Below are positions 5,830 to 31,966 of a stretch of 64,000 nt of DNA, in pieces. Each line of letters begins with the position of its first letter. Position 1 is the stretch's first letter. Under the pieces are notes generated by a model, which saw only the letters and a program-made list of their open reading frames with translations, ran no database searches and had not been told where the DNA came from. The stretch lies in sequence record MW822007.1, one strand, 5' to 3'. Source of the DNA: Escherichia phage BF15. The position numbers were made by a program, and so were the translations under genes.

Positions 5830-6072
5830 TTATTCCTTAATTCCTAGTACTTGTTTAAAAGTCTCGTCGTAATCAAGACTTTGGCCCGTTTGTTCTTTAT
5901 GTTTGTATATAATATCACTTACTTCTGATAGCATATTTTTATATGAACGAGTTAAAGCAGATTTAAGCACGCTGTATCTATCAGGAAATTTACCGTGTTC
6001 ATTATAATAAGCTATTGCTAATTCACGGACTGTCTTTTCAGCAGCCTCCATATATTCTTTACGCTTGGTCAT
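5830..6072 (-). CDS. hypothetical protein
   Basis: ORF trimmed to internal Met (MTKRKEY...); the longer track ORF overlaps the next gene. Confidence 0.35.
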
Positions 6073-6376
6073 TTTCTTCTCGGTCAAATCGGTGTTTACA
6101 ATGGCGACATTTATAACGAAGATTACTAGTCTGCCAATGGACCAATTGCACCTGTTCAGTTCCACATTCAGGGCAATTAGGAACGTTTTTAGAAGCGCGT
6201 TCGCGGCGTTCAACCATAACCATAATGGCATCCCAAGCAGGAGGTTTAAAGTCTAAATCGTCACAACCATGAATCTTTCCACGCATTTCCAAATCGTCTT
6301 CTTCACCAGCCATAATAATTTTAATTAGACTAGAATTACTTGAAGCTGCAATGTCTTCTAATAGACGCTTTTTCAT
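6059..6376 (-). CDS. zinc-ribbon protein
   Basis: CPECG...CRHCKH four-Cys motif at C-terminus. Confidence 0.45.
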
Positions 6377-7351: not shown

Positions 7352-8353
7352 TTACTTAATTAACTGTAAAGCTTGTTCCAGACGATCAAGACGATTAACA
7401 GATTCTTCCCAAATCTTTTTAGCCTGCTCATATTCTTTCTGCGCTTTATTAGAAATTTCTAGAACTTCCTTATAAGATTTTTCTAATGCAATAACTTCTG
7501 GACGAATTTCTATCGGTTCAGGTGAATCATCAAGACATTCCATTAGTTCCTCAAGGGTAGTTTCTTCTTTAGGAGTATTCACAATTTCATCACATTTTTG
7601 TTGATAAATTTCTTTATCAGTAGGTGAGTACGCGCACTTTACTTCACGAAGACTAATTACAATTTTATATCCTTCCCAACCGCATATATTCTTAAAAGGA
7701 TATGTATGAATATTTTCTACTGTTTCCATACAAAGTAATGCGGTCTCTAATTGACGAGTTATAGTGCTAGCAATTGAGAAAAATTTATTAATATTCTTTT
7801 GGTTAGTTTCTGGTGTAAAAAATCCATAATTCACAAAAATAGCTACTTTATTTTTATCAAGTTCATATTCTTTTATGATAATCATATCAGAAGCCAAAGG
7901 ATGAATTTGACGATAATCGCCATAACATAATTTAGAAGCTGATTTTAGAATTTGCTTCTTAAAAAGTCTGAAATTACTAATCCAACGACGAGTAAAAATA
8001 TTCTCAGGGTCTTCTTTGACATTAAGATGATAAGAATTAACATCACCGAACCAATTATATCCTACTACATCTTTGGTTCGTTTAATTTCTTTCCCAAAAT
8101 TACCAAGAATATCCCGATTAACCAAATATGAAAGAAGACGAGACTCTTTAAAGGTTTTCTTGATAACATCTTTATCTACACGGCTAGAAATTTTACGAAT
8201 TTCATGAATAAATTTAGTAGAAGAAACAATACTTGCATCAACACTATTGAGCCATTGATTGATAATAGAAAGAACACTATTTTGGCCAAACATCGGTATA
8301 GCTTTATCATCAATAACGCTATTGAATGATTTGATATATTCGTTACGAGTCAT
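7352..8353 (-). CDS. paralog-array protein 2, C-terminal coiled coil
   Basis: start set at ATG with GAGGAG SD (MTRNEYIKSF); shares QILKSASKL motif with protein 3. Confidence 0.6.
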   Translation of the reverse strand: MTRNEYIKSFNSVIDDKAIPMFGQNSVLSIINQWLNSVDASIVSSTKFIHEIRKISSRVDKDVIKKTFKESRLLSYLVNRDILGNFGKEIKRTKDVVGYNWFGDVNSYHLNVKEDPENIFTRRWISNFRLFKKQILKSASKLCYGDYRQIHPLASDMIIIKEYELDKNKVAIFVNYGFFTPETNQKNINKFFSIASTITRQLETALLCMETVENIHTYPFKNICGWEGYKIVISLREVKCAYSPTDKEIYQQKCDEIVNTPKEETTLEELMECLDDSPEPIEIRPEVIALEKSYKEVLEISNKAQKEYEQAKKIWEESVNRLDRLEQALQLIK

Positions 8354-8380
8354 ATTAATCTCCTCAGTAGAAAGTAAGAA

Positions 8381-8410
8381 CATTATACCACATCCTTGTG
8401 ACGAAGTAAA
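8381..8410 (-). promoter_or_regulatory. early-type promoter (GTTTAC, 15 nt, TGGTATAAT)
   Basis: spacer contains CAAGGATG; -35 overlaps stop of the upstream paralog. Confidence 0.45.
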
Positions 8411-13578: not shown

Positions 13579-14592
13579 TCATTTATAATAACTTCGGTGG
13601 TTTTCAAGATAAACCCTCTCAAGGAAGTCATCCCAGAAACTCATGTCTACTTTTTGCTGCATACCGTTCTTAGAAGCTTTAATGGATGCTGCTTCTACTT
13701 GATCGACAACATCTTCCAAAAACTCTTGAACAGTTTTAAATGGATGTTTACCCAACTTCACGTCGAGAATAAATGGAGCGTCTTGAAGTGGATAAATCAA
13801 GTCGCCAGTTTTGTAAATTTCCAATAGTTGAAGTCCACCACGACAAGCATGACTCAGAGCTTTCCAGTCAATACCTTCGTTGGCTTCGGCCTTACGAGCG
13901 CGTTCACCGTATTCAGCATCAAGTTTATTCAAAGACTGCTTAAGCTCAATAAGAGAAAGCGTTGTCTGATATTTACGACCCAACACAGTATAGAACGTTT
14001 GCGGGCCTGTTTTCTCATGATTATGGAACACCCATTCACAGAATTCGTTTTCTGGAAGACGATGCTTAATATCTTCAACTTTAGTGCGACGCTGCTTAAT
14101 GGAACCATCTTCTTGGTAATCAACCCACTGGTCAGGGATTTGATTAACTACTTTCAATACATCACGCAATGCAGCCAAACGAGAACCCTTGACACCGTAT
14201 TTAGAAGCTTGCTTGCGGACATATCCTAAATAGGATTTCATGTTAGTCGTATAGAACCGAGAACGATTGTCTTGGATAAATTTCCATACATCAGGTAAAT
14301 CAGATTTAACCACTAGTTCAGGTGGAGTGTGAAGCATATCCAATGCTACAGTTTCACCATCTGCTGCTAATTTAAAGAAATACTTAAGACTGTATAGTTC
14401 ATGGTCAATATCATCTTTAGTGTTTTTAGATGATGTGTTGTTAGTGTTTTTACTCATATGCTCTTTAACATTTCCGATAAGAATATCGCGAGCAGGAGGA
14501 ACAAAGATTTCTTTAAAATCCACATCAGATTCTGGAGTAGAAGTTCCATAAAGATGACTACCAAAATAGCTTTTCATTACTGTTTTCATCAT
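13579..14592 (-). CDS. polymerase-beta-fold nucleotidyltransferase-like protein
   Basis: N-terminal GSHLYGTSTPESDVD (GS-x9-DxD signature); 337 aa. Confidence 0.5.
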   Translation of the reverse strand: MMKTVMKSYFGSHLYGTSTPESDVDFKEIFVPPARDILIGNVKEHMSKNTNNTSSKNTKDDIDHELYSLKYFFKLAADGETVALDMLHTPPELVVKSDLPDVWKFIQDNRSRFYTTNMKSYLGYVRKQASKYGVKGSRLAALRDVLKVVNQIPDQWVDYQEDGSIKQRRTKVEDIKHRLPENEFCEWVFHNHEKTGPQTFYTVLGRKYQTTLSLIELKQSLNKLDAEYGERARKAEANEGIDWKALSHACRGGLQLLEIYKTGDLIYPLQDAPFILDVKLGKHPFKTVQEFLEDVVDQVEAASIKASKNGMQQKVDMSFWDDFLERVYLENHRSYYK

Positions 14593-15050
14593 TCAGCCTT
14601 ATATTCAATAACAGGACATACTTTAGCTTTACGAGCTTTTAAAAATTCGACGATAATAGACTTCTTGGGTTGAATAGGAGGTAAACCTTTATACGCCCTA
14701 TCAATATTTTCTACATGTAAAGCATAATCCTTTTTCCATTTATAATCTTTATATTTTTCATGCAGTTGTGCAGGAATAACAAATGAACCAATAATAAGTA
14801 AAACAAGCAAAATGGCAAGTATAAATGCTGATGGAATAAGAGTCCATAAACTACTAAAAATAAGCCAACGTTGTAAACTTTCTGCGCAGATAATAGTTAG
14901 ACCTGCGAGTATAGTACATCCGAAAAAAGAAACGAAAAATGTAGGAATAACAATAGACCAAAAATACGCGCATAGTGTCTTAGGTCGTTTCCATTCATCA
15001 TTAAACATTTTGAATAATTTATAGTGCCAAGAGCTTTCATTAATAATCAT
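14589..15050 (-). CDS. membrane protein
   Basis: three to four hydrophobic helices. Confidence 0.45.
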   Translation of the reverse strand: MIINESSWHYKLFKMFNDEWKRPKTLCAYFWSIVIPTFFVSFFGCTILAGLTIICAESLQRWLIFSSLWTLIPSAFILAILLVLLIIGSFVIPAQLHEKYKDYKWKKDYALHVENIDRAYKGLPPIQPKKSIIVEFLKARKAKVCPVIEYKAE

Positions 15051-15052
15051 AA

Positions 15053-15574
15053 TTATCCTTTCATTGAAGGTGTAACGGTTGTTAAATACTTAATCATAGC
15101 TTCAGCTTCTGATTTTGATAATGAAATTTCTCCATTGTTTTGACGAATAGAAATAAAATCCGGATGACGGTCACCGCCCGCTTTCAAAACACACATATAG
15201 GTATCAGTTTCATCTTCAATATTTGAAATAATTGAAGCAGTTCCGCATGAATGCGGTTTTTGATAAATCAATACGGCTTTTCTTCCACCGTTTGACTGTT
15301 CATAAACTTTTAACACATCAAACAAATCACTTCTTTTATCAATAGCTAAGATGTTGTTTTCATCTTCAATGTTAAATCCTTCGGATACTTCATAAAGCGT
15401 CACCCATAAATCACCTATATCGATAGTAGCATTTTCCTTTCCATGACTTTCAAGAGTATGACAAATTTTCTTGATTTCGTCATAACTCATTTTAATAATA
15501 TCATCTCCTTGAATAAGGAAGATGTCATTTTTAAATTCAACACGAATTAAACCACTTTCACTTGAAATAAACAT
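15053..15574 (-). CDS. hypothetical protein, paralog of the 15581-16138 protein
   Basis: shared C-terminal motif (A..K.YL..V.P(S/T)M). Confidence 0.5.
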   Translation of the reverse strand: MFISSESGLIRVEFKNDIFLIQGDDIIKMSYDEIKKICHTLESHGKENATIDIGDLWVTLYEVSEGFNIEDENNILAIDKRSDLFDVLKVYEQSNGGRKAVLIYQKPHSCGTASIISNIEDETDTYMCVLKAGGDRHPDFISIRQNNGEISLSKSEAEAMIKYLTTVTPSMKG

Positions 15575-15580
15575 ATTTCC

Positions 15581-16138
15581 TCACTTTGAAATCATAGTTG
15601 GAATGACAGAATCAAGATAAGTCTTTAGCGCAATAGCTTCGTCTTTGGTAAATGTGACAATATGTGATCGAAAATCGTCAATTTGGCGAATAGTTAAGAC
15701 ATCTCCCTCTTCATAACATTTTGATACATTTAAAAGAGTTTCATCATTCTGATTGCAAGCGTTAGTAATAATAGCATTGCAATTTTTGAGCCATTTTAAA
15801 CTATGTTTTCTTTCATTAGAATAATAAAAATATTTAATCTTAGCTATAAAACTATCCCAATGGATAACTGATAAACACATTGACTCACTGTTAATATTAA
15901 ATCCTGGGCATGAAGAATAAAAATGAATTTTGTGCTCATCATTGATGCTTACTATTTTATCAGTATAAGGATATTCAATTTGGGTTAAATGAATGATTTC
16001 ACTAGGCGTAAAATATAGCATATCGTCTTCTTGCGTCAAACGATACATGTTATTTACTTTTTCTATAGCCAATTCACCAAAAAGCGGACTAACTTCTAAT
16101 ACTAATCGTTTCATATTGATTCTCTTCGACTCACTCAC
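15581..16138 (-). CDS. hypothetical protein, paralog of the 15053-15574 protein
   Basis: 185 aa; track ORF begins at a GTG, true start uncertain. Confidence 0.45.
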   Translation of the reverse strand: MSESKRINMKRLVLEVSPLFGELAIEKVNNMYRLTQEDDMLYFTPSEIIHLTQIEYPYTDKIVSINDEHKIHFYSSCPGFNINSESMCLSVIHWDSFIAKIKYFYYSNERKHSLKWLKNCNAIITNACNQNDETLLNVSKCYEEGDVLTIRQIDDFRSHIVTFTKDEAIALKTYLDSVIPTMISK

Positions 16139-16270
16139 AATTACATACTCCTTTGAATAATATCAATAATGTTGTTCACCAGATTATAAGTAAACATTGG
16201 GTAATTATATTGAATCATCACATACACAACAAACAAAACTTTCATTCTCTTCTCCTTGGCAGTTGACAAG

Positions 16271-16303
16271 ATTACTATACCATAACCTTGCCAACTTGTA
16301 AAC
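16271..16303 (-). promoter_or_regulatory. early promoter (GTTTAC, 15 nt, TGGTATAGT)
   Basis: followed by AAGGAG SD. Confidence 0.45.
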
Positions 16304-16305
16304 CA

Positions 16306-16479
16306 TTAAATGACGTTTTCAATAAAATTCTGAAGCTTTGTGTGAGCATCAACCATGATTTTCATTTCTTCCTTTGCGAAAGCTGTACCTCTTTCCCGAG
16401 AAGAACACTCATAGTCAGAAACTGCATTAGCATATTCTTCAATTAGCTTCATTAAAAACATCTGCTTTTCAGTTTTCAT
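16306..16479 (-). CDS. small helical protein (57 aa), below the ORF-track cutoff
   Basis: hand translation MKTEKQMFLMKLIEEY...; resembles neighbouring ~60 aa genes. Confidence 0.35.
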   Translation of the reverse strand: MKTEKQMFLMKLIEEYANAVSDYECSSRERGTAFAKEEMKIMVDAHTKLQNFIENVI

Positions 16480-16663
16480 TATTCCACCTAATCATTTCAA
16501 GATATTGAACTAACTTAGCTTTGGATTTATCCAAATCCTTTTTAGCTGCTGCTATACCTTCGTATGAATATCCTTCACAGTGCTCAACTGCTAATTGATA
16601 TGAATCTATTTCAACATCACGTGCTAATTTAATGATTTTTTCAAACTGTTCTTGTGTCAGCAT
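16469..16663 (-). CDS. small helical protein
   Basis: 64 aa, MLTQEQFEKIIKL N-terminus. Confidence 0.45.
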   Translation of the reverse strand: MLTQEQFEKIIKLARDVEIDSYQLAVEHCEGYSYEGIAAAKKDLDKSKAKLVQYLEMIRWNNEN

Positions 16664-16665
16664 AC

Positions 16666-16869
16666 TTAAACTCTCGTATTGTGATCGATAATTTCATCAA
16701 GAAACATATCTAAAGCTTCTACGGCATTATCAACTTTAGCTTCAAATTCTTCAATACCTTTATTTGCAATACCTGACGAAAACCAACCAAAGTCACTAAG
16801 TTCCCCATCTGCTTTGCGAATTAAAGCTACCAATTCTTTAATTTTATCTGCTTGTTCTATACTAATCAT
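16666..16869 (-). CDS. small helical protein
   Basis: start trimmed to [13 protein letters not shown]. Confidence 0.4.
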   Translation of the reverse strand: MISIEQADKIKELVALIRKADGELSDFGWFSSGIANKGIEEFEAKVDNAVEALDMFLDEIIDHNTRV

Positions 16870-17057
16870 TATTCCACCACATATGAAAGAGAGAATATTG
16901 CGCACGCCATATGAGTTGCAGCTTCATCACACATATCATAACGTTTCTTAAGAAGTTCTACAAGTTCTTCACTAGTAACTTCATCCATGTCGACGAAAAA
17001 ATCACCATTAATGATGACGTAGATATTTCCTTCTTGATTAAGCGCTTCAATTTTCAT
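16869..17057 (-). CDS. small acidic protein
   Basis: start at ATG with GAGGAG SD (MKIEALNQ). Confidence 0.4.
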
Positions 17058-17084
17058 GATGTTCTCCTCTTTATCCGATGGTTG

Positions 17085-17115
17085 TATAGTATCACAGCTC
17101 AAATGGAAAGTAAAC
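17085..17115 (-). promoter_or_regulatory. early promoter (GTTTAC, 15 nt, TGATACTAT)
   Basis: consensus spacing. Confidence 0.45.
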
Positions 17116-17120
17116 CGGTA

Positions 17121-17148
17121 AAATGAAAAAAGTCTCCCGAAGGAGACT
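17121..17148 (-). terminator. rho-independent terminator
   Basis: GTCTCC-TTCG-GGAGAC then TTTTTTCATTTT on minus strand after 17153-17539. Confidence 0.6.
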
Positions 17149-17152
17149 AATG

Positions 17153-17539
17153 TTATTCGAGGGAAAGAAGATATTTACTTTGATAAAACATTCCAGTAAT
17201 ATCATCTATCGTGCTTTGAATGGCTGGAGGCATTTCTTTGTAAATGCTGTTAGATTGGTCTAGTATACGATCAATCATTTTAATTGTGTCGGTAGGAAGT
17301 TTACTAGCATCTGGAATTGAAGGTGTGTATTTTCTACCAGAATACCCCAAATACTGCTCACCAAATTTATCAATCAAATCTGGCAACTCAGAGAAAATAA
17401 AATCGTATGCCTTGTGTCTAGCATAACTTTTAGTTTCAAAATGCGCAGAATGAAAATAAGCTTGTGCAGCCATTAATAAACCTAAGTATTCATCTGCCTT
17501 TGAAGGTTTTCCACTTTGTGAAAAGTCGCTGAATTTCAT
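17153..17539 (-). CDS. rI.-1: conserved hypothetical protein in the rI.-1 position
   Basis: 128 aa; synteny upstream of rI. Confidence 0.5.
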
Positions 17540-17829
17540 TCAGTCTCCAATTTAATGTTCATAATTCTAGCGTATGATTGTGCCATCTCCGCGCCTCGTT
17601 CTATACATTCAAAATCGGAAGAGCACGGGTCATTTTTATAGGTCGTTCGCATAAAACTATAGAACTGTTCAGATGATTCTACGCTTTTATTTTCAAAAAG
17701 CATATAAACATGTCTAATACCAGATTCCATAAATTTATCAAAATGAGGATCGACATTCGCTTCAATCGGCGGAGATAAAACAAACGTTAATCCTAGCATG
17801 GCAAATAGTGCCGTTGCTTTTAAGGCCAT
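17536..17829 (-). CDS. rI: lysis-inhibition regulator rI
   Basis: 97 aa; N-terminal signal-anchor then periplasmic domain; matches T4 RI as recalled. Confidence 0.8.
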   Translation of the reverse strand: MALKATALFAMLGLTFVLSPPIEANVDPHFDKFMESGIRHVYMLFENKSVESSEQFYSFMRTTYKNDPCSSDFECIERGAEMAQSYARIMNIKLETE

Positions 17830-17841
17830 AAAGGCCTCCTA

Positions 17842-18054
17842 TCATTTTTGTCCTGTATTTACTTTATGCCGATGCACGGCCTTAACTTTATCAAGGTATT
17901 TTTCAAAATTTCGCAATCTAGTATAGTCTGCCGGAGATTGGTTGAGTGATACTTCTCGACGCAAAGCTGAAATGATATTTCCAACTTCCCTACGAATTTC
18001 ATCTAATTGAAGCACAGTAAGATTGCGAAGTTGCTTTTCAGTTAATTGTAGCAT
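17842..18054 (-). CDS. rI.1: hypothetical protein
   Basis: 70 aa basic protein; synteny. Confidence 0.45.
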
Positions 18055-18096
18055 ATATACCCCTTTAGTTAGATAAACCTATTTATAACTTTTGCA

Positions 18097-18678
18097 CTAA
18101 CCGAGCTTTTTAGTTAATTCATTCCAATGTTTTCTACACAAAGAAACATAAATTTCATCACCAATACAGATTTGATTACCTTCTTTAACTGGTGTTCCAT
18201 CTTCCATTAATCGAGCTGTCATAATCGCTTTTTTACCGCAATGACAAACTGCTTTTAGTTCAATAAGTTTATCTGCAATCGCCAAAAGTTCTTTAGAACC
18301 TTCAAATAATTTTCCGGCGAAATCAGTCCTTAATCCATAAGCCATAACAGGAACATTATATGTATCAACAATTCGACTTAATTGATGCACCTGTTCAGTT
18401 TTTAAAAATTGGGCTTCATCTACAAATACGCAATGAATATCTTTTTGTGCTTCAGCCCATTTATAGAACTCGAAAATATCCATATCATCTGTAATAATAT
18501 TCGCTTCCTGCTTAATTCCAATGCGAGAAACGACTTCACAGACAGAATCGCGAGTATCAATAGCAGGCTTAAGAACTAATACACTCATTCCACGTTCTTT
18601 ATAATTATGTGCAGCAGTCAAAAGAGAAGCAGATTTTCCAGCATTCATTGCCGCATAAGTAAAAATTAAACTCGCCAT
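18097..18678 (-). CDS. tk: thymidine kinase
   Basis: 193 aa; P-loop NAGKS; C-terminal Zn motif CHCG...C. Confidence 0.9.
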   Translation of the reverse strand: MASLIFTYAAMNAGKSASLLTAAHNYKERGMSVLVLKPAIDTRDSVCEVVSRIGIKQEANIITDDMDIFEFYKWAEAQKDIHCVFVDEAQFLKTEQVHQLSRIVDTYNVPVMAYGLRTDFAGKLFEGSKELLAIADKLIELKAVCHCGKKAIMTARLMEDGTPVKEGNQICIGDEIYVSLCRKHWNELTKKLG

Positions 18679-18679
18679 T

Positions 18680-18868
18680 TTAATCCTTAGTTAAATTTTC
18701 TAAATATGTTTTTAAATCATTTTCAGCTTTATCGATAGATTTTACTAATTCGTAATATGTTTCGGCATCTCCATATTCAGAAGATATTTCAAAAGACAAA
18801 TCCTTTTCTAAACTAATAATTTCACCAACTAAAAATAATATTTCGTTCTTTTGTTCGCGAGTAATCAT
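18680..18868 (-). CDS. tk.1: small helical protein
   Basis: 62 aa, MITREQKNEIL. Confidence 0.45.
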   Translation of the reverse strand: MITREQKNEILFLVGEIISLEKDLSFEISSEYGDAETYYELVKSIDKAENDLKTYLENLTKD

Positions 18869-19056
18869 AAGGAATTTATATAATTAATAAGTTCTTGTTC
18901 TTTATTATCGAATTCTTTAGAAAGTTCTTCGTACTCGTTTGCACTAAAAGGACCGCATTCATTACAAACTTTTTCCAATTCACTATTTTTATCCATAACT
19001 TCGTGGATAAGAGAAAAGAGTTTGTCTTTTTGTTCTTTACTTAAACTCATAACCAT
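18865..19056 (-). CDS. tk.2: small helical protein
   Basis: 63 aa, MSLSKEQKDKL. Confidence 0.45.
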   Translation of the reverse strand: MVMSLSKEQKDKLFSLIHEVMDKNSELEKVCNECGPFSANEYEELSKEFDNKEQELINYINSL

Positions 19057-19274
19057 GTCACCTTTAAGCAGTATTCTTCTACATGCTGTTTACGACCTTT
19101 CTTATCAATAAAGGTATATTCAACGAATGTTCCAATGTAGTCTTTATCGACATCATGTGGACTATTAATTGGACATTTAGTACGGCAAATGCGTTCCCAT
19201 TGACGAATAATTACTGCCTTATTCTTTGGGTCATACGGATGTGGATAATGTATATTCATAATAATGGTTCCCAA
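19047..19274 (-). CDS. tk.3: hypothetical protein
   Basis: 75 aa. Confidence 0.4.
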   Translation of the reverse strand: MGTIIMNIHYPHPYDPKNKAVIIRQWERICRTKCPINSPHDVDKDYIGTFVEYTFIDKKGRKQHVEEYCLKVTWL

Positions 19275-19723
19275 TCAACAATCACAATTTCTAATTTAGA
19301 GGAATATGTATCTAAAATCCCCTCAATAATATCCCAGTTCCCTTTACCTATGCCTGCACCAATCCTAGGCATATAGATTGTAGGTTTAATTAGTTTATTT
19401 TCACCAAACTCATTTAATTCTAACATACAATTCATTAAAGCGGAATACTCAAAATTTGGCCCTGGTTGAAATTGAGTATAAAGATTAAAGCAGCAAGCTT
19501 TATGAGTCCTAAAGTATTTTTCATAGACTGAATAAGAACCAAGTTTAGTTACATCACCCCATTCAGTCTGTAATTTATCAGCTTCCAAAATTTTAGGGAA
19601 AGCTTTGGTTAATTGACCTGCGACTCCAGCTTTCATCATGTGAAAACAATTACATCCATGCGCAATATTTTTACCTTCAGCGAAAAGGGCGACAATATCG
19701 CCCTTGATATATTTTACAATCAT
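19256..19723 (-). CDS. tk.4: macro-domain-like protein (putative ADP-ribose binding/hydrolase)
   Basis: GDIV...HGCNC...AGVAGQL and PRIGAGIGKGNW loops parallel macro-domain motifs. Confidence 0.5.
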   Translation of the reverse strand: MIVKYIKGDIVALFAEGKNIAHGCNCFHMMKAGVAGQLTKAFPKILEADKLQTEWGDVTKLGSYSVYEKYFRTHKACCFNLYTQFQPGPNFEYSALMNCMLELNEFGENKLIKPTIYMPRIGAGIGKGNWDIIEGILDTYSSKLEIVIVDWEPLL

Positions 19724-23240: not shown

Positions 23241-23543
23241 TTATTTACCTTTAATTACTTTAGCTGCTTCGATAGCCGCTTGCTGAAGGTCATCCATAGA
23301 CATACCGAATTTAGAAGCAAAGTTATCAATTTTCTTTTCGACAGCATTCAAAGGCTTGGCCTGTTTACCTTCATTAGCGCCAGGAAGAGCGAGAATACGC
23401 TCTTTGTCAATATAAAGGCTTACAAGTTTCTTACGGTCTTTATCGGACAAATCATGAAATGAATGGGCCTTTTTATTTATAGCGGCTTCTAATTTACCTG
23501 CACTCACTCGCGCTTCAGTAATAAATTCTTGATATGTTTTCAT
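23241..23543 (-). CDS. ipII: internal protein (IPII-like) with capsid targeting sequence
   Basis: MKTYQEFITE-A leader with gp21-type cleavage motif; 100 aa. Confidence 0.7.
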   Translation of the reverse strand: MKTYQEFITEARVSAGKLEAAINKKAHSFHDLSDKDRKKLVSLYIDKERILALPGANEGKQAKPLNAVEKKIDNFASKFGMSMDDLQQAAIEAAKVIKGK

Positions 23544-23584
23544 ATGTTTCCTTTAAATGTAAATAGGTCTGAGTATTATCTTTA

Positions 23585-31722: not shown

Positions 31723-31908
31723 CTATTCACCTTTAGAAATTTTATCCATAACGATAGCAATTAAACCAATTAAAAATGCTACTACAAGTGAAAAAACATT
31801 TTCTGCTGTAGTCAATAATCCGCATATAAATCCAACAAACATTGAAAAACTAAAAGCGGAAGCAGAAATTGCAATAGCAACATTTCGAATTAATTCACAA
31901 CGTTTCAT
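31723..31908 (-). CDS. small membrane protein
   Basis: 61 aa, two hydrophobic helices. Confidence 0.45.
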   Translation of the reverse strand: MKRCELIRNVAIAISASAFSFSMFVGFICGLLTTAENVFSLVVAFLIGLIAIVMDKISKGE

Positions 31909-31937
31909 TTTATTCTCCTCAGTAGTTGATAGGGTAA

Positions 31938-31966
31938 TAGTATCACTACCCTATCTAAAAGTAAAC
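31938..31966 (-). promoter_or_regulatory. early promoter (GTTTAC, 14 nt, TGATACTAT)
   Basis: consensus match. Confidence 0.45.

What the first reader, a model, noticed from the sequence alone, without database searches (positions are those of the whole stretch)
16306..19056. Family of five ~60-aa helical proteins flanking rI and tk, one below the ORF-track cutoff
Five small proteins share an N-terminal pattern: MKTEKQMFLMKLIEEY (hand-translated, 57 aa, 16306-16479), [51 protein letters not shown] and MSLSKEQKDKLFSLIHEV. The pattern is M-x-(T/S)-x-EQ-x-x-K-(I/L)-x-x-L. The first lies in what looked like a 330-bp gene-free gap and overlaps the upstream stop in operon style.
Basis: seen in the sequence. 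Interest (0 to 1): 0.45.

Follow-up and report, generated by a model that had tools for sequence, protein, structure and literature searches.

The report
Five small T4 hairpin proteins (DUF7438)
The five ~60-residue proteins are true relatives of each other, but they are the already annotated T4-type genes tk.2, tk.1, mobD.4, mobD.3 and mobD.2a, which belong to the catalogued Pfam family DUF7438, whose function nobody has yet established.

Summary
The window is a T4-like (Tequatrovirus) genome. The five minus-strand ORFs are tk.2, tk.1, mobD.4, mobD.3 and mobD.2a. All five match Pfam DUF7438 at 55-69 bits against a cut-off of 25. In leave-one-paralogue-out profile searches, the omitted copy is always the best of 913 six-frame ORFs in the window. 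AlphaFold predicts two-helix hairpins (pLDDT 90 and 95).

The 57-aa ORF is a real gene, mobD.2a. It is annotated in RB32 and T2, intact in 9 of 10 related phages, has dN/dS of about 0.14, and overlaps the mobD.3 stop by 11 nt.

Published T4 omics reports early RNA for all five orthologues and detected protein for four. A T4 deletion spanning nrdC.11 to mobD.3 is viable.

The family is small: about 35 clusters among 1.84 billion representatives. It sits in early or accessory regions of T4-like and N4-like enterobacterial phages. Copy number varies from 1 to 6, and variation concentrates in the loop.

Function is unknown. My best inference is that these are small, mostly acidic helical binders of host or phage proteins, acting in takeover or counter-defence. 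The family itself is already known, so interest is low to moderate.

The parts
18865..19050 (-). tk.2, 61 aa, DUF7438 member. An alternative upstream ATG lies at 19056.
   Evidence: Pfam PF24219 at 69 bits. AF2 model is a helical hairpin, H5-30/H37-60, pLDDT 90.3. The start overlaps the tk.3 stop as ATGA. T4/RB32 annotation agrees. dN/dS 0.08.
18680..18868 (-). tk.1, 62 aa, DUF7438 member. Its ATGA overlaps the tk.2 stop, and its own stop lies 1 nt before the tk start.
   Evidence: Pfam 55.6 bits. Left-out profile E = 4e-9. Annotated in T4 and RB32. T4 orthologue has early RNA and detected protein.
16666..16869 (-). mobD.4, 67 aa, DUF7438 member. Its start overlaps the mobD.5 stop by 1 nt (TAATG).
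   Evidence: Pfam 59.7 bits. Left-out profile E = 7e-3, rank 1 of 913. Loop-length alleles of 60, 63 and 67 aa occur in related phages. dN/dS 0.21. T4 protein detected early.
16469..16663 (-). mobD.3, 64 aa, DUF7438 member.
   Evidence: Pfam 58.7 bits. Left-out profile E = 5e-3, rank 1. dN/dS 0.14. T4 protein detected early. Lost in a viable T4 deletion spanning nrdC.11 to mobD.3.
16306..16479 (-). mobD.2a, 57 aa, the most divergent DUF7438 member. It overlaps the mobD.3 stop by 11 nt and is preceded by AGGTGG.
   Evidence: Pfam 56.5 bits and PHROG 2758 at 123 bits. AF2 hairpin H4-30/H36-55, pLDDT 94.7. Intact at 57 codons in 9 of 10 Tequatrovirus loci, dN/dS 0.14. Annotated in RB32 and T2.
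16869..17057 (-). mobD.5, 62 aa. Not a family member. It is the first gene of the mobD.5-mobD.4-mobD.3-mobD.2a unit.
   Evidence: No DUF7438 hit; matches PHROG 3024. Annotated in RB32 and T4. A mobD.5 promoter and transcript are documented in T4 (PMC1702504).
17086..17115 (-). Promoter-like sequence, GTTTAC-16 nt-(TGT)GATACT, upstream of mobD.5. It fell below the scan threshold and was read by eye.
   Evidence: Sequence. A mobD.5 promoter exists in T4. That this sequence is that promoter is inference.
17131..17148 (-). Intrinsic-terminator-like hairpin plus T-run after rI.-1. It separates the rI unit from the mobD.5 unit.
   Evidence: The same site is annotated as a terminator in phage R5505.
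16274..16302 (-). Sigma-70-type early-promoter-like site (TTTACA-17-TATAGT with TG), directly downstream of mobD.2a and upstream of mobD.2.
   Evidence: T4 early promoters Pe57954/Pe57.9 are named by coordinate in PMC6024815, and those coordinates lie between T4 mobD.2 and mobD.2a.

Best explanation
The five ORFs are the T4-type genes tk.2, tk.1, mobD.4, mobD.3 and mobD.2a. They are ancient, diverged paralogues of one small phage protein family, Pfam DUF7438.

Each encodes a protein of about 7 kDa, mostly acidic, that folds as an antiparallel two-helix coiled-coil hairpin. The genes sit in two tandem sets inside early transcription units and are translationally coupled to their neighbours. The proteins are made early in infection and are dispensable in the laboratory.

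The conserved parts lie side by side at the open end of the hairpin: the N-terminal M-I/L-T-x-E-Q...L..L motif and the C-terminal L..(Y/F)(L/I)E.(L/I) motif. The loop end varies in sequence and length.

Inferred, not shown: the hairpins pair into four-helix bundles and act stoichiometrically as small binders or modulators of host (or phage) proteins during takeover or counter-defence. Different paralogues and loop alleles would give different specificities.
For: Shown:
- Family membership and homology.
- Gene identities from RB32, T4 and T2 annotation.
- Hairpin models with pLDDT 90.3 and 94.7.
- a/d(+e) hydrophobic periodicity in both helices and a mean net charge of -6.5 across 34 family members. 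The five window copies are -2, -3, -8, -8 and -7.
- Purifying selection: dN/dS 0.08-0.21 for four genes; tk.1 gives 0.58 on very few changes.
- Start/stop overlaps of 11, 4, 4 and 1 nt.
- In T4, early RNA for all five orthologues and protein detected for MobD.3, MobD.4, Tk.1 and Tk.2 (PMC9697503 supplement). A mobD.5 promoter is also documented.
- Viable T4 deletion from nrdC.11 to mobD.3 (PMC9825161), and natural mobD.3::nrdC.11 fusion proteins (P0078, P0087).
- Copy number of 4-6 in Tequatrovirus, 3 in Mosigvirus ST0 and 1 in Kagamiyamavirus EcS1. One copy sits among the left-end early genes of the N4-like phage IME11.
- In-register tk.2/tk.1 hybrid genes (P0035, P0073).
- Variation within orthologue groups is concentrated in the loop.

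Inferred: dimerisation, from the wide hydrophobic stripe; and the binder/modulator role, from size, charge, early timing, dispensability and presence/absence polymorphism, which are features shared with characterised small phage takeover and anti-defence proteins.
Against: - No binding partner, phenotype or structure exists for any member. Literature searches found nothing on function.
- Fold searches return only generic helical hairpins and uncharacterised phage proteins.
- Loop variability may simply reflect lack of constraint rather than specificity.
- mobD.2a and mobD.3 are only weakly acidic.
- mobD.2a is frameshifted in the T4 reference with no known consequence.
- Oligomeric state was not modelled.
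Confidence: 0.55

Rival explanations
1. The shared N-terminal pattern is a chance or compositional resemblance among unrelated small helical, Lys/Glu-rich ORFs of an AT-rich phage.
For: Pairwise identities are 13-31%, and most pairwise phmmer scores are only 2-10 bits. The strict motif fits only 2 of the 5 copies.
Against: All five match Pfam over their full length at more than twice the gathering score. In leave-one-out profiles the omitted copy ranks first of 913 ORFs all five times. Each paralogue type has its own orthologues in other genera. In-register natural tk.2/tk.1 hybrids exist. The predicted folds are identical.
Confidence: 0.02
2. The 57-aa ORF (16306-16479) is not a gene but an open frame in an intergenic spacer.
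For: It is short. It is frameshifted to 38 aa in the T4 reference, and no T4 protein was detected.
Against: It scores 56.5 bits against DUF7438 and 123 bits against PHROG 2758. It is intact in 9 of 10 Tequatrovirus loci with dN/dS 0.14. It has a Shine-Dalgarno-like AGGTGG and a coupled start. A Mosigvirus orthologue exists (ST0 gp009). The hairpin model is confident. The absence of T4 protein is expected, because the T4 copy is broken.
Confidence: 0.04
3. The proteins are replication accessory factors ('helicase loader', as RefSeq and PHROG 4859 label one subfamily).
For: PHROG 4859, labelled 'helicase loader', matches mobD.4 at E = 5e-5 and mobD.2a at 8e-4. It is the home family of a sixth paralogue type, found in wV7 and Mosigvirus. 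One metagenomic member lies just downstream of a 766-aa AAA_25 protein.
Against: The label appears only as an unsupported product name on RefSeq records. No paper was found. The known T4 helicase loader, gp59, is a 217-aa protein of a different family (my own knowledge). None of the five hits any replication-protein Pfam family at E <= 1. The genes are dispensable. They sit in accessory regions, not in the replication module.
Confidence: 0.05
4. They act as nucleic-acid mimics or nucleic-acid binders: acidic DNA mimics like Ocr or Arn, or ROP-like RNA-binding four-helix bundles, rather than protein-specific binders.
For: tk.1, tk.2 and mobD.4 carry net charges of -7 to -8 on about 7 kDa (pI about 4.3-4.5), and the family mean is -6.5. 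The predicted fold is a hairpin compatible with a ROP-like dimer.
Against: mobD.2a and mobD.3 carry only -2 and -3, and family members range up to +4. No structural match to known DNA mimics or to ROP appears among the listed PDB hits. The one PDB sequence hit, an anti-CRISPR protein at E = 0.004, is fragmentary and non-colinear.
Confidence: 0.12
5. They have no function of their own as proteins. They persist as translationally coupled spacer cistrons, or as neutral passengers in hyperplastic regions.
For: They are dispensable in the laboratory. Presence and absence vary between closely related phages. The T4 mobD.2a copy is a pseudogene.
Against: dN/dS is 0.08-0.21. Length, fold and terminal motifs are conserved across phage genera and into the Schitoviridae. 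Proteins are detected in T4 infection.
Confidence: 0.1

Closest known systems
Pfam PF24219 (DUF7438), equivalent to PHROG 653 / 2758 / 4859; T4 genes tk.1, tk.2, mobD.3, mobD.4 and mobD.2a
   Same: All five window proteins are full-length members, well above the curated threshold. They are 89-100% identical to proteins of RB32, T2, T4 and hundreds of Tequatrovirus genomes.
   Different: Nothing differs in kind. This genome carries an intact mobD.2a, unlike the T4 reference. It has the long-loop mobD.4 allele. It lacks the sixth ('helicase loader'-labelled) copy present in wV7, PhiZZ6 and R5505.
Characterised small early phage proteins that bind and modulate host proteins (for example T4 AsiA, T7 Gp2, lambda Kil, N4 gp8; from my own knowledge)
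   Same: Small size, early expression, dispensability in laboratory hosts, and location in variable early regions.
   Different: There is no sequence or specific fold relationship, and no partner is known for DUF7438. The resemblance is functional analogy only and was not tested.
ROP/Rom of ColE1, a 63-aa helical hairpin that forms a homodimeric four-helix bundle (my own knowledge)
   Same: Same length class and a predicted helix-loop-helix hairpin. A wide hydrophobic stripe is compatible with dimerisation.
   Different: ROP is not among the 50 PDB Foldseek hits listed. There is no sequence similarity, and no evidence of RNA binding.
T4 gp59 helicase loader, and MobA/MobB molybdopterin-guanine dinucleotide biosynthesis proteins (names attached to members in RefSeq)
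   Same: Only the product labels on some database records.
   Different: No Pfam, NCBIfam or structural similarity was found. The 'MobD' label derives from the T4 gene name mobD.x, which refers to a neighbouring homing endonuclease gene. It does not refer to molybdenum cofactor synthesis.

Membership tests
Pfam DUF7438 (PF24219) | Whole-protein score above the curated gathering threshold (25 bits), with a full-length match to the 57-position model | tested here: met
   Scores are 56.5, 58.7, 59.7, 55.6 and 69.0 bits, covering profile positions 1-56/57 in all five.
Pfam DUF7438 (PF24219) | Homology that does not depend on the curated model possibly containing these very sequences | tested here: met
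   Leave-one-paralogue-out HMMs rank the omitted copy first of 913 window ORFs, with E = 1e-6, 4e-9, 7e-3, 5e-3 and 0.12. mobD.2a is the weakest.
Pfam DUF7438 (PF24219) | Common architecture: about 57-67 aa, a two-helix hairpin, N-terminal M-(I/L)-T-x-E-Q and C-terminal L-x-x-(Y/F)-(L/I)-E motifs | tested here: met
   The alignment of 34 members shows both motifs. AF2 models of tk.2 and mobD.2a are hairpins with pLDDT 90.3 and 94.7.
T4 gp59-type helicase loader (RefSeq / PHROG 4859 label) | Sequence or domain similarity to a known helicase-loading protein | tested here: not met
   No replication-related Pfam or NCBIfam hit at E <= 1. PHROG 4859 is itself a 61-position family of DUF7438-like proteins. 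No literature supports the label.
T4 gp59-type helicase loader (RefSeq / PHROG 4859 label) | Physical or functional interaction with a replicative helicase | not testable with these tools
   Needs biochemistry.
Molybdopterin-guanine dinucleotide biosynthesis protein 'MobD' (RefSeq label on mobD.4) | Similarity to MobA/MobB-type enzymes | tested here: not met
   No such Pfam or NCBIfam hit. The protein is a 60-67 aa hairpin. The name tracks the T4 locus name mobD.4.
Anti-CRISPR protein (PDB 23aa) | Colinear sequence homology | tested here: not met
   Whole-sequence E = 0.004, but it is split into non-colinear fragments of 13.6 and 8.4 bits.
Dimeric four-helix-bundle hairpins (ROP-like) | Homodimerisation of two hairpins | not tested
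   Only monomer prediction was available. The a/d/e hydrophobic stripe is suggestive only.

The most novel reading that the evidence does not exclude
DUF7438 genes form a diversifying arsenal of mini-binders. A conserved open-end scaffold presents a hypervariable loop, with loop-length alleles, whole-allele replacement and paralogue hybrids. Each variant would neutralise a different host factor or anti-phage defence protein. That would explain the copy-number variation of 1 to 6 between closely related phages and the family's presence in both T4-like and N4-like early regions.
Probability: 0.25. Interest if true: 0.55.

Novelty: already known. Interest (0 to 1): 0.22.

Why it matters
About half of T4's genes still have no function, and many of those are small early ORFs in variable regions. 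This family provides five of them in one genome. It is expressed, under purifying selection and polymorphic in copy number. That makes it a reasonable candidate set for host-takeover or counter-defence screens.

The finding adds no new family, gene or mechanism. Its practical value is limited to three points:
- It confirms that mobD.2a is a real gene and that it is broken in the T4 reference.
- It documents loop-focused variation and paralogue hybrids.
- It flags two misleading database labels, 'MobD molybdopterin...' and 'helicase loader'.

Tried and rejected
- Fold searches with the tk.2 model gave nothing specific. Foldseek against PDB had no hit at E <= 1e-3, only generic hairpins such as ZraP, CsoR/FrmR, histidine-kinase DHp domains and designed bundles. 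Foldseek against BFVD returned only uncharacterised 55-67 aa proteins of T4-like and N4-like phages.
- A PDB sequence search with the family profile gave one marginal anti-CRISPR hit. I rejected it as fragmentary and non-colinear.
- NCBIfam gave no family.
- Literature searches for DUF7438, mobD.3, mobD.4, mobD.2a, tk.2 and UniProt accessions found no functional study.
- Miller et al. 2003 (PMC150520) is not held in the library. The supplement of PMC9825161 is not held either.
- Candidate sixth members in the window were rejected: 23241-23552 and 31723-31950 have no DUF7438 hit, and 7352-8410 scores only E = 0.13.
- The RB32 ORFs inserted between tk.2 and tk.3 (RB32ORF110c and 111c) are not family members. 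One is a phage zinc-binding domain protein.
- The two ORFs flanking the EcS1 member gave only E of about 0.5, so I did not count them.
- I considered a metal site at the tk.2 C-x-x-C and rejected it, because the cysteines are absent from other tk.2 alleles.
Full report
**Identity of the region.** Window 16000-19300 is 97-98% identical to many Tequatrovirus (T4-like) genomes. In 490 of 645 matching phage records, a single match covers at least 80% of it. From RB32, T4 and T2 annotation, the minus-strand gene order from high to low coordinates is:
- tk.4 (macro domain), tk.3, tk.2, tk.1, tk, rI.1, rI, rI.-1
- a terminator
- mobD.5, mobD.4, mobD.3, mobD.2a
- a promoter
- mobD.2, mobD.1

**Is the similarity real?** Pairwise identity is only 13-31%. 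Pairwise phmmer is convincing only for tk.1/tk.2 (18.6 bits). Shuffled ORF sets give essentially no hits. At profile level the case is clear:
- All five match Pfam PF24219 (DUF7438) end to end at 55.6-69 bits, against a curated cut-off of 25.
- Four match PHROG 653, and mobD.2a matches PHROG 2758.
- The Pfam model may contain these very sequences, so I built profiles omitting each paralogue and its orthologues in turn. I searched all 913 six-frame ORFs of 30 aa or more in the window. The omitted copy was the top hit every time: E = 1e-6 (tk.2), 4e-9 (tk.1), 7e-3 (mobD.4), 5e-3 (mobD.3) and 0.12 (mobD.2a).
- A richer 34-sequence profile finds exactly these five in the window and nothing else. 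Two weak candidates were checked against Pfam and rejected.

The homology is not confined to the N-terminus. The family also has a conserved C-terminal L-x-x-(Y/F)-(L/I)-E-x-(L/I) motif.

**The 57-aa ORF.** Several lines show it is a gene:
- It is annotated as mobD.2a in RB32, T2 and other phages.
- Its ATG overlaps the mobD.3 stop by 11 nt and follows AGGTGG.
- It is intact at 57 codons in 9 of 10 Tequatrovirus loci compared, with pooled dN/dS of 0.14. That is similar to rI at 0.11.
- Its model is a confident hairpin (pLDDT 94.7).
- A Mosigvirus orthologue exists.

The '330-bp gap' also holds the 34-aa gene mobD.2 and an early-promoter-like site. It looked empty only because of an ORF-length cut-off. 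In the T4 reference genome, mobD.2a is split by a frameshift into a 38-aa annotated stub and an out-of-frame C-terminal piece.

**Anatomy.** AlphaFold2 models tk.2 as helices 5-30 and 37-60 (pLDDT 90.3), and mobD.2a as helices 4-30 and 36-55. Across 34 members:
- Both helices show a/d (plus e) hydrophobic periodicity.
- Mean net charge is -6.5. The window copies are -2, -3, -8, -8 and -7.
- The conserved N-terminal start of helix 1 and C-terminal end of helix 2 must lie next to each other at the open end of an antiparallel hairpin. This follows from the hairpin geometry; I did not measure it on coordinates.
- Within each orthologue group, substitutions and indels concentrate in the loop region. 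For example, mobD.4 has alleles of 60, 63 and 67 aa.

**Expression and dispensability (published T4 data).**
- The supplement of PMC9697503 classifies mobD.3 and mobD.4 as early RNA with early protein. tk.1 and tk.2 are early RNA with middle protein. mobD.2a is early RNA with no protein detected, as expected for the broken T4 copy.
- PMC1702504 documents a mobD.5 promoter and transcript. In the window a terminator-like hairpin (17131-17148) follows rI.-1. A GTTTAC-16-(TGT)GATACT sequence precedes mobD.5 (my own reading).
- Starts and stops overlap along both gene sets: tk.3/tk.2 as ATGA, tk.2/tk.1 as ATGA, mobD.5/mobD.4 as TAATG, and mobD.3/mobD.2a by 11 nt. This indicates translational coupling.
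- A T4 deletion from nrdC.11 to mobD.3 is viable (PMC9825161). Natural mobD.3::nrdC.11 fusion proteins are present in databases (P0078, P0087).

**Distribution and evolution.**
- An exhaustive profile search of 1.84 billion cluster representatives returned only 42 hits at E <= 1e-3. About 35 of these are proteins of 50-76 aa; the large ones are multi-stretch coiled-coil matches.
- Each window paralogue has recognisable orthologues in other lineages, so the duplications are old.
- Copy number is 4-6 within Tequatrovirus. Some phages have a single divergent tk.2 allele where the window has tk.2 plus tk.1. Others carry a sixth type between mobD.2 and mobD.1.
- Mosigvirus ST0 has 3 copies. Kagamiyamavirus EcS1 has 1. 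An uncultured T4-like contig carries one in the same slot between the macro-domain gene and tk.
- N4-like IME11 has 1 copy, among the left-end early genes.
- Other metagenomic members sit in runs of small phage ORFs.
- Two database proteins are in-register tk.2/tk.1 hybrids (P0035, P0073). That is the expected product of unequal recombination between tandem paralogues.

**Function.** No source assigns a tested function.
- Pfam calls it a DUF, and PHROG 653 and 2758 are 'unknown function'.
- No solved structure is related. BFVD neighbours are all uncharacterised. No paper discusses these proteins.
- Two product names circulate in RefSeq. 'Molybdopterin-guanine dinucleotide biosynthesis protein MobD' is a confusion with the T4 locus name. 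'Helicase loader' sits on the PHROG 4859 subfamily.
- Neither label is backed by any similarity I could detect.

My best-supported reading is that these are small coiled-coil hairpins, probably dimeric. They would act early in infection as stoichiometric binders of host or phage proteins, with the variable loop end tuning specificity. This rests on analogy and on indirect features: size, charge, timing, dispensability and polymorphism. It is inference, not demonstration. I put about 0.97 on the identity and family claim and about 0.35 on the binder mechanism. The reported confidence of 0.55 is a blend of the two.

**Verdict.** It rediscovers an annotated, catalogued family of unknown function in the best-studied phage lineage. 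Interest is low to moderate.

Noticed in passing
L003 (T4 NC_000866) 5994-6178; compare window 16306-16479: In the T4 reference genome, mobD.2a is frameshifted. The annotated 38-aa product matches profile positions 1-31. The rest of the protein (HSFSKEEMKIMVDAHTKLQNFIENVI) lies in another frame. The window, RB32, T2 and 6 other phages have the intact 57-aa gene.
   Followed up: yes
L009 (wV7) 2352-2537; L008, L011, L012 at 2351-2536; absent from the window between 16139 and 16141: A sixth DUF7438 paralogue type (61 aa, MTSEQAFKLRELIETY...) lies between mobD.2 and mobD.1 in some Tequatroviruses. RefSeq labels it 'helicase loader' in wV7, and it belongs to the PHROG 4859 type. I found no support for that label.
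   Followed up: partly
Proteins P0035 (phage UFV-AREG1) and P0073; compare window 18680-19050: Natural in-register hybrids with a tk.2 N-terminal half and a tk.1 C-terminal half. This implies unequal recombination between the tandem paralogues. RB68, IME537 and R5505 instead carry one divergent tk.2 allele (about 57% identity) and no tk.1.
   Followed up: partly
window 16867-16880 and 16477-16490 (minus strand): The junctions before mobD.4 and before mobD.2a share the identical 12-mer GGTGGAATAATG, which spans the Shine-Dalgarno-like sequence, the spacer and the start codon. This is either a remnant of the duplication unit or convergent selection on coupling signals.
   Followed up: no
window 16141-16245 (minus strand): mobD.2 is a 34-aa hydrophobic peptide (MKVLFVVYVMIQYNYPMFTYNLVNNIIDIIQRSM) just downstream of an early-promoter-like site at 16302-16274.
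   Followed up: partly
window 15053-15574 and 15581-16138 (minus strand): There are two mobD.1-like paralogues in tandem (173 and 185 aa). A 153-aa ORF (14589-15050) stands where T4 has the mobD homing endonuclease, as in RB32 ('replaces mobD'). Both mobD.1-like proteins end in a helix, (T/S)K(D/S)EA-A(L/M)-(K/T)YL, that faintly resembles the DUF7438 motifs. The HMM E-value of 0.3-3 is not significant.
   Followed up: partly
RefSeq annotation of L003, L007, L009 and L010: Several product names look propagated in error. 'Molybdopterin-guanine dinucleotide biosynthesis protein MobD' is attached to mobD.4 and mobD.1. 'Tk.2 conserved hypothetical protein' is attached to tk.3. rI.-1 is labelled 'starvation-inducible transcriptional regulator'; I did not check that one.
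   Followed up: partly
window 19047-19050, compared with L001 4548-4930: Like T4, the window lacks the roughly 370-bp insertion carrying two small ORFs between tk.2 and tk.3 that RB32, T2 and wV7 have. One of those ORFs is a phage zinc-binding domain protein. The window does have the RB32-type replacement of mobD, so this region is a mosaic of T4-like and RB32-like segments.
   Followed up: partly
L014 2277-3622 and L016 2351-5177: Distant DUF7438 members in metagenomic phage contigs lie next to replication or nucleotide-related genes. One is immediately upstream of a 385-aa AAA_33/zeta-toxin-like kinase. Another is downstream of a 766-aa AAA_25 protein. With single examples of each, no conclusion can be drawn.
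   Followed up: no
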